This document shows positions 37,390-50,275 of a stretch of 64,000 bases of DNA, piece after piece. The position numbers were made by a program, and so were the translations under genes. Numbering within the stretch: the stretch's first letter is position 1; the number at the start of each line of letters is the position of its first letter. Source of the stretch: an uncultured delta proteobacterium (GTDB taxonomy: Bacteria > Desulfobacterota > Binatia > Binatales > Binataceae); NCBI GenBank assembly GCA_963765675.1, contig CAVXXK010000015.1, positions 64,039-128,038 on the forward strand. The letters are read 5' to 3'. A model generated the notes under the pieces. The model made no database searches and was not told where the DNA came from. It saw nothing but the letters and a program-made list of their open reading frames with translations.

Positions 37390-37659
37390 CGAGCTCCTTC
37401 GCGAAAGGAGTGCGCGCTTGTTCTTGTTTTGCCTGATTTTGGGCAAGGTAGTGCCTTTGATTTTTTGAAATCGGGCGTTTTGCGGTGGGTTCGTTTGGTA
37501 TCTTTTCTAGTCGCTCGAAAAATAAACTCCTTTAAACCTCTGCCGAATTCGCGACATTGGGTTCGTTTTGGCAGCTTTTTCGGTCATCAATTTTTGGACG
37601 TTCTGACGTGGCGATCCGACCTTGAGGTAGTGCCAACTCATGAGGCTAAGTCGCCGCTG

Positions 37660-37815
37660 GCAGAGCAGCACCCTCATCCGCCCTTCGGGCACCTTCTGGG
37701 GGCCCGGAGGGAGAAGGCATTCGGGCATGTTCTGATCCTTCTCCCTCCGGGAGAAGAGCCTGCCCTGAGCCTGTCGAAGGGTGGCGCGCAGCGCCGGATG
37801 AGGGTGCTGCTCTGC
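37660..37815. repeat. Inverted doublet of CCCTCA/GGGAGA palindromic repeat
   Basis: 21-bp perfect outer IR (37660-37680/37795-37815) and 14-bp inner IR (37704-37717/37737-37750). Confidence 0.8.
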
Positions 37816-38237
37816 TTCCGGGGAACGCGGCCGTCGCCGGTCCGTTCCACTGGCGAAAGGCCCAAACCGAAGCGGTGTAGTGGGCGGGATGCTTCCACGC
37901 GATCACTTTTGCACGAAGCGAATTCCGGCATAAGGCTGAACAGTTCAGCCATGAACAAATCTGGCAAAAACCCGAACGATCGTTAGGCACGGCGAACGCT
38001 TCGAAAAAAACGGCTTTATCCGCGCAAGTCGCTCTGCGCGTGCGCCAACCGACACGTCTGCCACGGCCGGCAGAACAGAGCGACGCCGCAAGGCCGCCCA
38101 CGGAGGCGTGTCACAATATTTGCGAAAAAGGCGGAGACATCGCGCCGCGGCACGCGAGGAACAGGGGGCAGCGAACCTCGCGCCCACCGGCTTTGGCCGG
38201 TGCGGGCCCTGTGCCACCTAGGACTCAATCAGATTTC

Positions 38238-39728: not shown

Positions 39729-40002
39729 GTCCCTCTCCTCTACAGAATTGGGAGAGGGTGCGCGGCGCGGCGATTGCTTCTTTTAGCAATCGCCGTGACG
39801 CGCGGGTGAGGGGCCGGCAGAAATAAGTCTTTGAACCTGTGAGCCCAGCTCGGGCGTGAATATACAGCCTAAGATTCTGCGCATCGCGATCGTGGTGCAG
39901 TCGTATCGAGTGAAGGTTCCTGTCTGTCTGTCCCTCACCCGTCGCGCACGGCGCGCGACACCCGCGTGCCAGTGGCACCTCCCAATCTCTTGGGAGAGGG
40001 AC
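39729..40002. repeat. Gene-less inverted pair of the DUF559-flanking repeat
   Basis: GTCCCTCTCC...CGGGTGAGGG, ~118-bp spacer, CCCTCACCCG...GGAGAGGGAC. Confidence 0.8.
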
Positions 40003-48089: not shown

Positions 48090-48464
48090 ATGAGCAATAT
48101 GAAAAGGCTCGATCGCCTGGATGTCGCGACAACAGACCTGGCCGACGCGGCGTCGATCTATCAGAAGAATTTCGGCTTTGCGGTCTCACGCGACGCGGCC
48201 GGCAACCTCGCGACGGTGAAGGTAGGCGACGCCGAGATTCGCCTCGCCGCCGGAGAATCGGTAGCGGCGCAACTCGCGGCGAACGGCGAAGGGATGTACG
48301 CGCTATGGCTGGAAGCCGAAGACCTCGACGCCGTAGTCACCGCGCTGCGCAACGCGGGAATAGCTCCCGGCGCAATCAAGCTCGAGGCAAACCGCCGAGT
48401 CCTGTCGATAGATCCAAAACACGCAAACCAGGTGCCTCTGTACATTTTCGATCGCAAGCACTGA
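48090..48464 (+). CDS. VOC family protein
   Basis: Glyoxalase-like pattern: DVATTDL...YQKNFGF, GEGMYALWLEAEDLD. Confidence 0.8.
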   Translation: MSNMKRLDRLDVATTDLADAASIYQKNFGFAVSRDAAGNLATVKVGDAEIRLAAGESVAAQLAANGEGMYALWLEAEDLDAVVTALRNAGIAPGAIKLEANRRVLSIDPKHANQVPLYIFDRKH

Positions 48465-48494
48465 CCCGCGCCGCTCCGCTGTCCGCGCCTCGAC

Positions 48495-48782
48495 GTATGC
48501 GCCTCTCCCCCGGGAGAGCTTTGGGTAGCCAATCGAAAGAGCTGCTGCTGCGCGAGAGTTCTTCGCGACCTCGCCGCGCCAGCTGATACGCACGGCCCCA
48601 TCCGCATTGCATGGCGCATCGAATGACAATTTCTCCTGGCTTTGTGTCACCGAGCGCGATCAGGCCACCCTGCATAGTTCGTATGCTTCATGTTGCGCGG
48701 CAGAGGTCGCGAGAAGTCAAGCCCATGCGCACCGGCGCACCCGTCCGATTGGTTACGCAAAGCCCTCCCGGAGGGAGAGGGA
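48495..48782. repeat. Partial copies of the DUF559-flanking repeat
   Basis: GTATGCGCCTCTCCCCCGGGAGAG (48495-48518) matches 48936-48960; TCCCGGAGGGAGAGGGA (48766-48782) matches 49461-49477. Confidence 0.7.
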
Positions 48783-48940
48783 ATCCTAGTGGCGGTGCTT
48801 GGGGTAACTGAGAAACAAAGGGTATTTCAGAATTCGGCTGTGGCTGCGGCGGCGGCAGCCGTTGGTGAGCGAGTATCTGCAATCCGCGACATTGTATATT
48901 TCCTGCGGCGGCGATGTGTTTCCGCGCGCCGCTTTGTATG

Positions 48941-49478
48941 CGCCTCTCCCTCCGGGAGAGGCCGCGGAGGATTTCGCTGCGCGAAGTCCTCCGCGGGTGA
49001 GGGCGGCCTACTGCAGTCCCAACGCGTCAAGGATCCGCGCGATCACCGATTCAGTTTCGGCGAGGACCTCGTTATTCCAGAAGCGAATTACCCGGTAGCC
49101 TTCGCGCTGCAGATATTTGGAACGCTCATCGTCATACGCGATATCCTCGGCGTGTTGCCCGCCATCGAGTTCGATCACGAGCATATGCTCGACTGAGCAG
49201 AAATCGGCAAAGAACGGTCCTACGGGATATTGACGGCGAAACTTCACGCCACCGAGCTTTCGTCCGCACAGGAGCTTCCAGATCTTCCGCTCCGCGTCGG
49301 TCATATCTCGGCGGAGCTTGCGCGCGGTGCTGAGCTTATCCGCGTCTGCTGGCGGATTGCGTGGACGAAGCATTTCGAATCAGGAGTTTGTGCCGGGCCG
49401 CCCTCACCCGAGCGTCACGATGCTTGCGAAAAAGCCGCAAGCATCGCGCCGCTCGCCCTCTCCCGGAGGGAGAGGGAG
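48941..49478. mobile_element. Putative DUF559 nuclease element bounded by structured inverted repeats
   Basis: 15-bp perfect IR CGGGTGAGGGCGGCC (48994-49008)/GGCCGCCCTCACCCG (49396-49410), plus outer CCTCTCCC-GGGAGAGG hairpins. Confidence 0.6.
49008..49373 (-). CDS. DUF559 (Vsr-like PD-(D/E)xK) endonuclease domain protein
   Basis: ARKLRRDMTDAE, KFRRQYP, ADF, IELDGGQH, GYRVIRFWNNEV. Confidence 0.93.
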   Translation of the reverse strand: MLRPRNPPADADKLSTARKLRRDMTDAERKIWKLLCGRKLGGVKFRRQYPVGPFFADFCSVEHMLVIELDGGQHAEDIAYDDERSKYLQREGYRVIRFWNNEVLAETESVIARILDALGLQ

Positions 49479-49516
49479 TTTCTATGCTTGCTATTCACCA
49501 CCAAGTTAGCCGTTCC

Positions 49517-50275
49517 TCAAACTTCCTCGGTGAACATCGCTTTCACCGATTCTTCCAGCTTGCGCGTCATCTCCACCCGATCGGCGCTGCGCATCCCCTC
49601 GGTCGCGATCGGCTTGCCTATGCGCATGCGCATCGTGCCGCCTGGTACTACGATCATCGCGCGGCGCGGAAAGAACAGGCCCGAGCCGCTAACCGCCATC
49701 GGCACTGCAGGCAGCTTGGTCAGGATCGCGAGCCATGCGGCGCCGTCCTCGAACTCGTGCACGCGATTGTCGTTGAAGCGATGGCCCTCAGCGAAGACGC
49801 AGATACTGTAGCCGAGCCGCGTTACCTTGATCGCGTGGCGGATTGCTTTTCCGCCTCCTTGACGATCGATCACGATGTGGCAGGAGTTATTGAGCGCGTA
49901 TCCGAGGATCGGAATCTTCAGCAGCTCTTTCTTGGCGACGAAGCGAACTGCGCCCGGCATGTAGGCGGCCACCGCGAAAATATCGAAGAAGCTCTGATGG
50001 TTACTGACCAGAATGTAGGATTTGAGTCCTGCGAGGTTTTCCAATCCTTCGATCTCGACGCGGATGCCGCTGGTTTTTATGATGAGCCATCCCCAGAGCC
50101 GCGTGAGTTGCGTCACTGGGCCGGGGCGACCGACCAGCGCGCACAGCGCAGCTATCGGCGCGAGGATCGCGGTATAGACCACGCCCATCACGGTGGCCAC
50201 GGTGCCCCAGACGATTTTGAGCGGTCCGCGTGAGGCGGCAGGTACGAAGGTGGAGGCCCGTGCGTCGTTCGCCAT
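49517..50275 (-). CDS. plsC: 1-acyl-sn-glycerol-3-phosphate acyltransferase family
   Basis: NHQSFFD, FVAKKEL, IDR, FAEGHR. Confidence 0.88.
   Translation of the reverse strand: MANDARASTFVPAASRGPLKIVWGTVATVMGVVYTAILAPIAALCALVGRPGPVTQLTRLWGWLIIKTSGIRVEIEGLENLAGLKSYILVSNHQSFFDIFAVAAYMPGAVRFVAKKELLKIPILGYALNNSCHIVIDRQGGGKAIRHAIKVTRLGYSICVFAEGHRFNDNRVHEFEDGAAWLAILTKLPAVPMAVSGSGLFFPRRAMIVVPGGTMRMRIGKPIATEGMRSADRVEMTRKLEESVKAMFTEEV

What the first reader, a model, noticed from the sequence alone, without database searches (positions are those of the whole stretch)
48941..49478. DUF559 nuclease enclosed by structured inverted repeats: a REP/RAYT-like system with a Vsr-type nuclease
Seen: an intact 121-aa DUF559 gene is tightly bracketed by two ~70-80-bp inverted units. 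Each unit reads CCCTCACCCG, a long variable hairpin, then a CCTCTCCC-GGGAGAGG hairpin. The inner ends form a perfect 15-bp IR (48994-49008/49396-49410), and the left arm touches the stop codon. Further copies lie at 48495, 48766, 39729-40002 and 37660-37815. Established: REP palindromes cluster in this way around RAYT HUH transposases; DUF559 is a PD-(D/E)xK nuclease fold with no function I can assign. Inference: the nuclease recognises these hairpins (ssDNA or RNA) and maintains or spreads the family. I know of no characterised system of this type, but I cannot search the literature.
Basis: partly seen in the sequence, partly recalled or inferred. Interest (0 to 1): 0.85.

Follow-up and report, generated by a model that had tools for sequence, protein, structure and literature searches.

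The report
Nuclease gene inside triplex-forming repeats
A small DUF559 nuclease gene sits between two inverted copies of a known bacterial triplex-forming DNA repeat, and the same pairing recurs across many bacteria, so this orphan repeat may at last have a partner enzyme.

Summary
A 121-aa DUF559 (Vsr-like) nuclease gene (49008-49373, minus strand) lies between two inverted structured units.

The units are more than hairpins. Each has a pyrimidine arm, a loop, a purine arm, a linker and a mirror-image G-rich segment. This is the known bacterial intrastrand triplex motif (TM_ECO/PIT, Holder 2015), here with an extra stem-loop in the linker. Both units give sub-threshold matches to Rfam whalefall-1.

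The pairing recurs:
- 3 of 5 DUF559 loci in this genome are bracketed the same way, with inner distances of 397/397/398 bp.
- 25 of 31 loci in relatives have an upstream motif.
- 67 of 79 diverse loci across phyla have one, against 0 of 75 control stretches.

DUF559 is the only gene found in tight brackets. Most of the 116 typed units form gene-less, MITE-like pairs.

Multi-copy repeat families occur only in genomes that have DUF559: 11 of 11 in the window's lineage and 7 of 7 in an Enterobacterales sample.

The papers I searched describe the repeat but no partner gene.

Best reading (0.5): a selfish mini-element whose nuclease acts on its own folded ends, as in REP/RAYT. Nuclease action on the repeats, triplex folding in cells and the way the units spread are all untested.

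The parts
48943..49008 (+). End unit on the gene's 3' side, read here on its G-rich (+) strand. It holds the hairpin CCTCTCCC-tcc-GGGAGAGG (48943-48961), a linker stem-loop (48962-48996) and the third segment GGGTGAGGG (48995-49003). Its inner edge is shared with the stop codon.
   Evidence: sequence; I1, I4, I5; (z -4.85); whalefall-1 match of 26.2 bits against a gathering score of 37; (L003 downstream unit, 8 of 8 canonical triads).
49008..49373 (-). DUF559 ORF, 121 aa, a Vsr / I-Bth0305I-like PD-(D/E)xK nuclease.
   Evidence: PF04480, E 6e-39. D57, E68, D70 and H74 are invariant in 15 sequences. PDB 3HRL, E 1e-26. AF2 model with pLDDT 85.8; Foldseek hits 3HRL 3e-8, 3R3P 3e-4, 1CW0 4e-3.
49374..49400 (-). 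A 27-nt leader between the third segment of the 5' unit and the ATG.
   Evidence: No sigma-70-like promoter was found in 48400-49700.
49401..49476 (-). End unit on the gene's 5' side; its G-rich strand is the gene's sense strand. It holds the hairpin CCCTCTCCC-tcc-GGGAGAGGG (49476-49456), a linker stem-loop of type A (49455-49409) and the third segment GGGTGAGGG (49409-49401).
   Evidence: I1, I2, I5; (z -6.80); whalefall-1 match of 21 bits; (L003 upstream unit, 9 of 9 canonical triads, linker 46 nt).
39729..40002 (.). Gene-less bracket of the same family (B-type and D-type units). 119 bp separate GGGTGAGGG (39804) from CCCTCACCC (39932).
   Evidence: The ends, plus about 20 bp inside them, are shared with the gene-bearing element at C1:1606k. 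The core is unique.
37671..37804 (.). Variant pair (CCCTCATCC ... GGATGAGGG) with the third segments on the outside. It is part of a larger repeat of about 550 bp.
48499..48782 (.). Two hairpin-only copies (about 48502 and about 48765-48782). They form the ends of another inverted repeat, inside a 441-bp stretch that the closest relative G009 lacks.
   Evidence: D1, I3, I10.

Best explanation
WHAT IT IS. The locus is the gene-bearing member of a repeat family: a mini-element of about 540 bp. A Vsr / homing-endonuclease-like DUF559 nuclease gene fills the space between two inverted copies of the bacterial intrastrand triplex motif. That motif reads pyrimidine arm, loop, purine arm, linker, then a mirror-image G-rich segment. 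Here an extra stem-loop sits in the linker. The G-rich strand is the sense strand upstream of the gene.

MOST LIKELY MECHANISM. The nuclease is the family's own trans-acting enzyme. It recognises the folded ends by shape (hairpin or triplex) more than by exact sequence and nicks or cuts there. Host repair and recombination then copy units, with or without the gene, into breaks. This spreads and homogenises the family and leaves many gene-less, MITE-like pairs. It works like REP/RAYT, but with a different enzyme class and a different DNA structure.

SHOWN: the anatomy; the recurrent gene-repeat linkage across phyla; genome-level co-occurrence; gene-less derivatives that share junctions; in-situ gene loss.

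INFERRED: that the nuclease acts on the repeats; that the triplex forms in cells; how the units reach new sites.
For: 1. Same bracket, same orientation. 3 of 5 DUF559 loci in G000 are bracketed alike, with inner distances of 397, 397 and 398 bp, although the proteins are only 53-58% identical.

2. DUF559 is the only gene in tight brackets. The other pairs are 58-213 bp apart. The three wide pairs (1639, 3341 and 4900 bp) enclose housekeeping genes, not a transposase.

3. Relatives: upstream motif in 25, downstream inverted motif in 24, and both in 19, of 31 loci.

4. Diverse phyla (80 loci found):
- upstream sense-strand motif in 67 of 79, or 52 of 79 with a linker of 6 nt or less;
- downstream inverted motif in 37 of 74;
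- far controls 0 of 75, 0 of 75, 0 of 64 and 0 of 64.

5. Mirror symmetry. With asymmetric purine arms, the antiparallel-triad fit beats the direct-repeat fit in 26 of 31 distinct combinations (2 the other way, 3 ties). The triplex was shown in vitro by Holder 2015 (PMC4666352, sections read).

6. Co-occurrence.
- Window's lineage, 41 genomes: 18 have the strict pattern, and 17 of those have DUF559. All 11 genomes with 9 or more copies have it. Of 18 genomes without DUF559, 17 have no copies and one has 2.
- Enterobacterales sample, 121 genomes: all 7 genomes with 7 or more TM_ECO copies have a strong DUF559 hit (6 of 6 without the seed genome). Of 101 genomes with no hit, 98 have 0 copies and 3 have 1-3.
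- E. coli chromosomes: ycjD present 23, 26, 13, 15, 23 copies; ycjD not found 11, 3, 2, 7, 7.

7. Gene-less elements share internal junctions. Nine pairs have an inner length of 58-63 bp and six have 81-84 bp. Their inner part matches the 5' leader of DUF559 elements in G001 and G004. They therefore multiplied after losing the gene.

8. In-situ gene loss. G009 keeps both outer ends, the leader and about the first 20 nt of the ORF.

9. Fold. The nearest characterised structures are a homing endonuclease (3R3P) and Vsr. Steczkiewicz 2012 places VSR, DUF559 and I-Bth0305I in one clade.

10. Milman 2023 lists 'DUF559 domain-containing protein' as 14.3-fold enriched among predicted inversion targets, which fits genes flanked by inverted repeats (one table passage seen).
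Against: - No biochemical or expression data bear on the claim.
- Repeats persist without the gene.
  - G000 has 16 CCCCTTCCC-variant units but no DUF559 of the clade that carries that variant elsewhere.
  - G000 has 7 CCTCCCCC-variant units whose only matching gene is broken by a TAA stop.
  - E. coli strains without ycjD keep 2-11 units.
  - 3 Enterobacterales genomes and G006 hold 1-3 units with no DUF559 hit.
- DUF559 occurs without the canonical pattern in 6 of 23 genomes (window's lineage) and 6 of 13 (Enterobacterales). G007 and G013 do have variant motifs of their own.
- In Serratia and E. coli the gene is not bracketed. There is no upstream motif. The 3' hairpin is degenerate. A sense-oriented motif lies about 170-330 bp downstream.
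- Motif class tracks the protein tree only loosely: 16 changes against 24.9 for shuffles, on a poorly resolved tree. Three sister Dehalococcoidia proteins carry three different classes.
- No clean empty site or target-site duplication was found, so transposition is not shown.
- Units show no replication-strand bias (64 against 52), unlike single-strand-DNA elements.
- The E. coli contrast is confounded by phylogroup: ycjD replaces eefRABCD in phylogroups A, B1 and C.
- A small PD-(D/E)xK nuclease cannot carry out strand transfer by itself.
Confidence: 0.5

Rival explanations
1. Homing-type parasite of a repeat that already existed. The DUF559 gene is a free-standing homing endonuclease gene. 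It cuts uninterrupted pairs of repeat units and is copied into them by repair, with the units serving as homology arms. The repeats themselves arise and spread by some other, unknown route. So the gene depends on the repeats, not the other way round.
For: - The closest characterised fold is the homing endonuclease I-Bth0305I.
- The gene sits exactly at the centre of a palindromic pair, and its insertion splits GGGTGAGGG from CCCTCACCC.
- Linker stem-loop types are swapped between near-identical elements: B-type in G000 and G009, A-type in G002 and G005. End types are also mixed (A/E, B/A, B/D). Both point to recombination among copies.
- Different paralogs occupy the same VOC-plsC site in G000 and G001.
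- Repeats exist without the gene.
Against: - No repeat-rich genome lacks DUF559: 0 of 18 and 0 of 101 genomes without the gene hold more than 3 copies. This is unexpected if the repeats spread on their own.
- No abutting, uninterrupted target pair exists in G000; the smallest inner distance is 58 bp.
- Homing does not explain how gene-less units that share junctions reach new loci.
Confidence: 0.22
2. Cis-acting expression signals. The upstream unit is a structured 5' leader, with its G-rich third segment doubling as the ribosome-binding site. The downstream unit is a terminator or stabiliser of the nuclease mRNA. Gene-less copies are simply decayed remnants of whole-element insertions.
For: - The G-rich strand is always the sense strand upstream, 1-60 nt from the start codon.
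- Weinberg 2010 rated whalefall-1 as a likely RNA.
- The 3' hairpin of the window's upstream unit also fits a terminator-like pattern.
- In-situ gene loss does occur, as in G009.
Against: - 124 units stand against 1 gene in Serratia fonticola, 23 against 1 in E. coli K-12-like strains, and 116 typed units against 5 gene loci in G000.
- Gene-less elements share deletion junctions, so they multiplied without the gene.
- Holder 2015 reports that earlier work found no promoter or terminator activity for these motifs (passage).
- Mirror symmetry fits a purine-motif DNA triplex. My recollection, which comes from no call, is that such triplexes are weak in RNA.
Confidence: 0.1
3. Host-beneficial caretaker. 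DUF559 is a repair nuclease that removes or processes hairpin and triplex structures. It is kept by selection in genomes burdened with these unstable repeats. The adjacency arises because the repeats insert around it.
For: - The family is related to the repair enzyme Vsr.
- Holder 2015 links the motifs to genomic instability (abstract).
- ycjD is a single-copy chromosomal gene in 3378 of 5426 E. coli genomes.
Against: - The tight, oriented bracket with a constant inner length, and ORF ends that read into the repeat, are hard to get from chance insertions.
- The gene has a patchy, multi-copy distribution (up to 15 matches in G014), and copies are broken in G000, G013 and G010-type loci.
- The same element occurs in distant phyla, which argues for horizontal spread as one unit.
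Confidence: 0.1

Closest known systems
Intrastrand triplex motif TM_ECO / 'PIT' elements (Holder et al. 2015, PMC4666352; the earlier Hoyne/Maher work is known to me only through that paper)
   Same: The three-block design is the same: CCCTCNCCC, loop, GGGNGAGGG, loop, GGGNGAGGG. It fits a purine-motif (class II) triplex. The motifs are intergenic, many per genome, and often occur in inverted pairs. Copy number is patchy between close relatives.
   Different: - In the window the second loop is a 33-46-nt stem-loop instead of 3 nt.
- Holder found no function and 'never found' mobility genes near the motifs. The paper does not mention DUF559 or endonucleases (0 occurrences).
- Here the motif brackets a nuclease gene and tracks that gene's presence.
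Rfam RF01762 whalefall-1 RNA motif (Weinberg et al. 2010, PMC2864571)
   Same: The model consensus reads CUCUCC-loop-GGAGAG, then a second hairpin, then GGGUGAGG. This is the same order of parts as the window's units. Both units match it.
   Different: The scores of 26.2 and 21 bits are below the gathering score of 37. The family was described as a non-coding RNA seen only in a whale-fall metagenome, with no link to a gene or to DNA repeats.
REP / REPIN repeats with RAYT transposases
   Same: A single small gene is flanked by inverted copies of a structured repeat. That repeat is scattered in tens to hundreds of gene-less copies, often as inverted pairs. Abundance depends on the gene being present, and the repeats decay slowly after the gene is lost.
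   Different: The enzyme is a Vsr-like PD-(D/E)xK nuclease, not an HUH/Y1 transposase. The repeat is a triplex-capable three-block motif, not a simple palindrome. No strand bias was seen.
I-Bth0305I homing endonuclease (PDB 3R3P) and Vsr (1CW0, 1VSR)
   Same: Same fold and the same clade as DUF559. In the homing case a small nuclease gene spreads by cutting DNA.
   Different: - I-Bth0305I sits in a phage group I intron. Vsr works with a cytosine methyltransferase on T:G mismatches.
- Here there is no intron or intein, and no methyltransferase gene next door (the neighbours are a glyoxalase-family gene and an acyltransferase gene).
- Pfam gives PF04480 and no Vsr family hit.
MITEs and their parent insertion sequences
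   Same: Short gene-less copies share their ends, and part of the interior, with a longer gene-bearing element.
   Different: There is no transposase of any known family, and no target-site duplication was found.
E. coli YcjD (DUF559)
   Same: Same family. [quoted passage not shown]
   Different: ycjD is single-copy and not fully bracketed. It lies at the sapF-fabI site, where other phylogroups carry eefRABCD.

Membership tests
Pfam PF04480 (DUF559) | Profile match above the curated cut-off. | tested here: met
   E 6e-39, 132.7 bits against 20.6; residues 14-118 cover profile positions 4-108 of 109.
Vsr-like PD-(D/E)xK nuclease fold (clade of VSR, DUF559, DUF2726) | Fold similarity to solved members, and conserved acidic and histidine residues. 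| tested here: met
   AF2 model with pLDDT 85.8. Foldseek: 3HRL 3e-8, 3R3P 3e-4, 1CW0 4e-3. D57, E68, D70 and H74 are invariant in 15 sequences. I did not map these residues one-to-one onto the Vsr catalytic residues.
Vsr very-short-patch repair enzyme proper | Vsr family profile (PF03852) and partnership with a cytosine methyltransferase gene. | tested here: not met
   Only PF04480 and a sub-threshold PF18741 hit were found. The neighbours are a glyoxalase-family gene and an acyltransferase gene.
TM_ECO intrastrand triplex motif (Holder 2015) | 9-nt C-rich stem, loop of 3-6 nt, 9-nt G-rich stem, loop of 3 nt, second 9-nt G-rich stem. | tested here: not met
   The stems and first loop fit (CCCTCTCCC / GGGAGAGGG / GGGTGAGGG, loop 3 nt). 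The second loop is 34-46 nt with its own stem. This makes it a long-linker variant. Many DUF559 loci in other phyla meet the strict form: 52 of 79 have a linker of 6 nt or less.
TM_ECO intrastrand triplex motif (Holder 2015) | The third block can lie antiparallel on the purine arm using only G*G:C, A*A:T and T*A:T triads. | tested here: met
   9 of 9 and 8 of 8 canonical triads in the window's two units (L003). The mirror fit beats the direct fit in 26 of 31 asymmetric combinations.
TM_ECO intrastrand triplex motif (Holder 2015) | The triplex actually forms. | not testable with these tools
   The folding tool models Watson-Crick pairs only. In-vitro formation for the E. coli motif is reported in PMC4666352 (abstract).
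Rfam RF01762 whalefall-1 | Covariance-model score at or above the gathering score of 37 bits. | tested here: not met
   26.2 bits (48940-49004, + strand) and 21 bits (49400-49478, - strand). Model positions 1-56 of 56 are aligned.
REP/RAYT system | An HUH / Y1 tyrosine transposase gene. | tested here: not met
   The enclosed gene is DUF559. It is the only gene type found in tight brackets.
REP/RAYT system | The gene is flanked by inverted repeat units, and gene-less copies are abundant only where the gene is present. | tested here: met
Insertion sequence / MITE pair | Target-site duplication and clean filled-against-empty sites. | tested here: inconclusive
   A 128-kb comparison of G000 with G009 gave only complex indels at repeat loci.
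Homing endonuclease gene | It cleaves the uninterrupted target and is copied into it. | not testable with these tools
   The only evidence is fold likeness to I-Bth0305I and the gene's position at the centre of the palindrome.

The most novel reading that the evidence does not exclude
DUF559 genes with their triplex-motif ends form a previously unrecognised, cross-phylum class of mobile DNA. The only element-encoded protein is a Vsr-like nuclease that reads a folded three-stranded DNA structure, not a sequence, and drives copying of the ends by break repair. On this reading the thousands of orphan TM_ECO/PIT repeats in proteobacteria (23 in E. coli K-12), the whalefall-1 'RNA' and the uncharacterised YcjD/DUF559 family would be parts of one system.
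Probability: 0.35. Interest if true: 0.9.

Novelty: new variant of a known kind. Interest (0 to 1): 0.8.

Why it matters
Two long-standing orphans would explain each other.

- **The repeat.** The G/C-rich intrastrand triplex repeats of bacteria were reported in 3610 copies across 262 proteobacterial genomes. They are linked to local genome instability, and no function or mobility gene is known for them (PMC4666352).
- **The gene.** The DUF559/YcjD nuclease family is widespread. A structure has been solved (3HRL), but I found no assigned function.

If the nuclease acts on the folded repeat, this would be a natural enzyme that targets a DNA triplex or hairpin. It would also be a REP/RAYT-like selfish system built from different parts.

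The idea can be tested directly in E. coli K-12, which has one ycjD gene and 23 repeats.

It would also change how these intergenic repeats, and the Rfam whalefall-1 family, should be annotated.

Tried and rejected
**Leads that gave nothing**

1. Are the unique 56-89-bp cores of the six gene-less B/D brackets decayed DUF559 sequence? No. Their local alignment scores lie within the shuffle range.
2. I looked for target-site duplications and clean empty sites by aligning contig C15 (128 kb) with 160 kb of G009. Only complex indels turned up at repeat loci.
3. Replication-strand bias of the units: 64 against 52, so none.
4. Co-evolution of motif class with the protein tree: clustering is weak and the tree is poorly resolved.
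5. Expression: no RNA holder is listed for the window. Laying four soil DNA runs gave fragmentary contigs and pile-ups on the repeats. The only joints were two single low-depth contigs in one run (skips of 189 and 28 bases), and neither spans the element.
6. The promoter scan found no sigma-70-like site.
7. The three wide brackets (1.6-4.9 kb) hold housekeeping genes, not cargo or a transposase.

**Readings I considered and dropped**

- Alternative Watson-Crick pairing of the third segment with the pyrimidine arm. Asymmetric variants rule it out, because the third segment is a mirror repeat, not an inverted one.
- A chance or assembly artefact. The recurrence across genomes rules this out.

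**Literature**

Within the held library I found no paper that links DUF559 or ycjD to these repeats.

- 'DUF559': 25 papers, listing seen.
- Motif strings: 6 papers.
- 'intrastrand triplex' + bacteria + endonuclease: 4 papers.
- 'ycjD': 21 papers.
- Triplex terms from 2015 on: 37 papers.

Subscription journals and supplementary files were not visible. Holder's Table 1 and Supplementary Table S2 (flanking genes) may list ycjD as a neighbour.

**Failed or empty calls**

- The script crashed; I fixed it.
- One search printed nothing.
Full report
**1.

The window carries an intact 121-aa ORF at 49008-49373 on the minus strand. It matches Pfam DUF559 at E 6e-39. Two inverted units flank it.

Read on its G-rich strand, each unit has three parts:
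- a CCTCTCCC-loop-GGGAGAGG hairpin (48943-48961 and 49457-49475). That is 2 matches in the window against 0 in 100 shuffles;
- a second, variable stem-loop (48962-48996 and 49409-49455, I4 and I2);
- the segment GGGTGAGGG (48995-49003; its complement lies at 49401-49409).

The inner ends form a perfect 15-bp inverted repeat. Its left arm ends on the first base of the stop codon (I5). As single-stranded DNA, the G-rich strands fold far better than shuffles (z -4.85 and -6.80).

- 39729-40002 is a true gene-less bracket;
- 37660-37815 is a sequence variant with the units facing outwards;
- 48495 and 48766 hold only the hairpin part, inside another repeat.

**2. The bracket recurs in this genome and DUF559 is its only gene**

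The window's genome is 4.5 Mb in 16 contigs and has five DUF559 loci.
- Three carry the same bracket in the same orientation relative to the gene. The distance between GGGTGAGGG and CCCTCACCC is 397, 397 and 398 bp, although the proteins are only 53-58% identical.
- A fourth copy is truncated and has only hairpins.
- The fifth is broken by a TAA stop and carries a sequence variant of the motif (CCTCCCCC / GGGGGAGG / GGAGGGGG).

A regex census finds 116 typed units plus 40 untyped hits. Five linker types occur: A 50, B 45, C 11, D 6, E 4.

I then paired left and right ends. Inner distances cluster at 58-63 bp (9 pairs), 81-84 (6), 97-98 (3) and 119-129 (4). The three DUF559 genes come next, at about 397 bp. 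The only wider pairs (1.6, 3.3 and 4.9 kb) enclose housekeeping genes and are chance neighbours. These genes include a peptidase M23, a P450, an acyl-CoA dehydrogenase and parB/parA/gidB/gidA. No transposase lies in any bracket.

**3. Gene-less copies derive from gene-bearing elements**

The six B/D brackets share their ends with the gene-bearing element at C1:1606k. They also share about 20 bp inside the ends, including what correspond to the last codons. Their cores are unique and unlike the gene.

About 30 units belong to a composite gene-less element of 190-230 bp. Its inner part (a GC hairpin followed by ...gcgcgattataaag) equals the 5' leader of DUF559 genes in two relatives, G001 and G004. 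These copies share the same internal junction. They therefore multiplied after losing the gene, as MITEs do.

**4. The VOC-plsC site in relatives**

- The closest relative, G009 (plsC about 93% identical), keeps both outer ends, the leader and about the first 20 nt of the ORF, but not the gene. This is an in-situ deletion.
- G006 and G008 have no DUF559 at this site.
- G001 has a different paralog there (50% identity) with short-linker ends.

The site is therefore a recurrent target, or the cassette has been exchanged there.

**5. The units are the known intrastrand triplex motif**

Rfam gives sub-threshold matches of both units to whalefall-1 (26.2 and 21 bits; gathering score 37). The model consensus has the same order of parts.

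A protein-based scan of species genomes returned 80 diverse DUF559 loci. They come from Beta-, Gamma- and Alphaproteobacteria, Neisseria, Serratia, Pseudomonas, Chloroflexi and Candidatus Binataceae. The Binataceae titles suggest the window's lineage. Most of these loci carry CCCTCTCCC-loop-GGGAGAGGG-TTA-GGGTGAGGG just upstream of the gene.

In variants with asymmetric arms, the third segment is the mirror image of the purine arm. It is neither a direct nor an inverted repeat. Examples:
- GGGGGAAGG then GGATGGGGG;
- GGAGGAGGG then GGGTGGAGG;
- GGGAGGGG then GGGGAGGG.

Folded back antiparallel, such a segment gives only G*G:C, A*A:T and T*A:T triads. The mirror fit beats the direct fit in 26 of 31 distinct combinations, with 2 the other way and 3 ties.

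Searching papers for the motif string led to Holder et al. 2015 (PMC4666352; outline, passages and sections 15, 16 and 18 read). That paper:
- defines this motif as TM_ECO;
- shows the triplex in vitro;
- counts 3610 copies in 262 proteobacterial genomes and 23 in E. coli K-12;
- links the motifs to local instability;
- reports that no transposase or integrase was ever found nearby.

The words DUF559 and endonuclease do not occur in it. In the window the usual 3-nt second loop is replaced by a 34-46-nt stem-loop.

**6. Linkage statistics**

With one detector (purine core of 8-9 nt, hairpin with at most 1 mismatch, third segment within 80 nt, at most one non-canonical triad):

| Set | Upstream, sense strand | Downstream, inverted | Both |
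|---|---|---|---|
| 31 loci, own genome and relatives | 25 | 24 | 19 |
| Diverse loci | 67 of 79 | 37 of 74 | not counted in this call |

Control stretches of the same length, 735-1000 bp upstream and 700-970 bp downstream of the gene, give 0 of 75, 0 of 75, 0 of 64 and 0 of 64. With a linker of 6 nt or less the diverse-locus figures are 52 of 79 and 23 of 74, and the controls stay at 0.

Motifs in the opposite orientation also occur near the genes: 17 of 79 upstream and 16 of 74 downstream. So the genes sit in repeat clusters, with a preferred but not exclusive orientation.

**7. Co-occurrence across genomes**

*Window's lineage, 41 genomes.* The strict long-linker pattern occurs in 18 genomes, and 17 of them have DUF559. 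The exception is G006 (2 copies, 86% complete). All 11 genomes with 9 or more copies have the gene. Of the 23 genomes without the pattern, 6 have DUF559. Two of those, G007 and G013, hold their own variant motifs.

*Second lineage, 121 genomes of the order around Serratia fonticola.* TM_ECO occurs 7 or more times in 7 genomes (124, 37, 36, 32, 15, 10 and 7 copies). All 7 have a strong DUF559 hit. Without the seed genome, which I chose because it carries the gene, the count is 6 of 6. Three genomes with 1-3 copies have no hit. Six genomes with a strong hit lack the exact pattern.

*Within E. coli.* ycjD is found in 3378 of 5426 complete genomes.
- Five ycjD-positive chromosomes hold 23, 26, 13, 15 and 23 motifs.
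- Five without ycjD hold 11, 3, 2, 7 and 7.

This contrast is confounded by phylogroup, because ycjD replaces the eefRABCD operon in phylogroups A, B1 and C (PMC12817139, passages). Two of the positive strains are K-12-like. I tested only for ycjD-like DNA, not for other DUF559 genes.

**8. Results that cut the other way**

- Repeats outlast the gene.
  - G000 has 16 CCCCTTCCC-variant units but no DUF559 of the clade that carries that variant in G007, G009 and G023.
  - G000 has 7 CCTCCCCC-variant units, and its only matching gene is broken.
- In E. coli and Serratia the gene is not bracketed.
- Motif class follows the protein tree only loosely. Three sister Dehalococcoidia proteins have three different classes. 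If the enzyme reads the repeat, it probably reads shape more than sequence.
- I found no target-site duplication or clean empty site.
- Units show no strand bias.
- I found no RNA data.

**9. The protein**

An AF2 model (pLDDT 85.8) is closest to three solved structures:
- the uncharacterised Neisseria protein 3HRL;
- the homing endonuclease I-Bth0305I (3R3P);
- Vsr (1CW0).

Steczkiewicz 2012 puts VSR, DUF559 and that homing endonuclease in one clade. D57, E68, D70 and H74 are invariant in 15 sequences.

Milman 2023 lists 'DUF559 domain-containing protein' as 14.3-fold enriched among predicted programmed-inversion targets. This fits genes flanked by inverted repeats.

**10. Reading**

- *Settled:* this is a recurrent, cross-phylum genetic unit, a DUF559 gene packed between inverted triplex-motif ends, with gene-less derivatives.
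- *Best-supported mechanism (0.5):* a REP/RAYT-like arrangement in which the nuclease acts on its own folded ends and host repair copies the units.
- *Main rival (0.22):* a homing-type gene that parasitises repeats which spread by other means.
- *Less likely (about 0.1 each):* cis-regulatory ends, or a caretaker repair enzyme.

The repeat and the protein family are each known. In the library I could search, the link between them is not.

Noticed in passing
L036/L127 region (G009 stretch, about 122.6 kb and 137.9 kb of the reversed stretch); L040 (G006 VOC-plsC interval): A second MITE-like family of about 190 bp, with ends GAGGCTGTCGAT...ATCGACAGCCTC, sits exactly inside the loop of the triplex-motif hairpins. 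The loop letters ('tttt', 'tgaaa') appear on both sides. The hairpin loops therefore seem to be a preferred insertion target for another element.
   Followed up: partly
window 37435-37988: A repeat of about 550 bp with conserved ends (about 178 and 110 bp) and a variable middle. It is present in many copies in all four relatives searched. It contains the outward-facing CCCTCATCC units. G009 lacks about 1.3 kb at this site.
   Followed up: no
window 48484-48955: A 441-bp stretch that G009 lacks is bounded by 31-nt direct repeats (81% identical). It contains another inverted repeat (CCTCTCCC..GGGAGAGCTTTGGGTAGCCAATCG / CGATTGGTTACGCAAAGCC..GGGAGAGG).
   Followed up: partly
L125 870-1060 (E. coli, downstream of ycjD): A second, partial copy of the 3' end of a DUF559 gene lies between ycjD and a TM_ECO motif. 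This suggests an older, decayed element at the sapF-fabI site.
   Followed up: no
L051, L054 (Neisseria): The upstream and downstream units of one DUF559 gene are different motif variants (GGGGGAGGG/GGGTGGGGG against GGGGGAAGG/GGATGGGGG). The two ends therefore need not match in sequence.
   Followed up: no
L008, L018, L022, L030, L032, L033: Several DUF559 ORFs read through into the downstream unit and end in Pro/Ser-rich tails (for example ...SPSPSPSP). The stop codon often lies inside the repeat.
   Followed up: no
G014: One relative has 15 DUF559 matches but only 1 copy of the strict long-linker pattern. Its repeat variants were not surveyed.
   Followed up: no
G041 (Serratia fonticola) and G045 (Variovorax): Pairs of motifs differ in geometry between taxa. 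In Variovorax they are mostly inward-facing, about 40 bp apart. In Serratia they are mostly outward-facing, about 130-350 bp apart.
   Followed up: no
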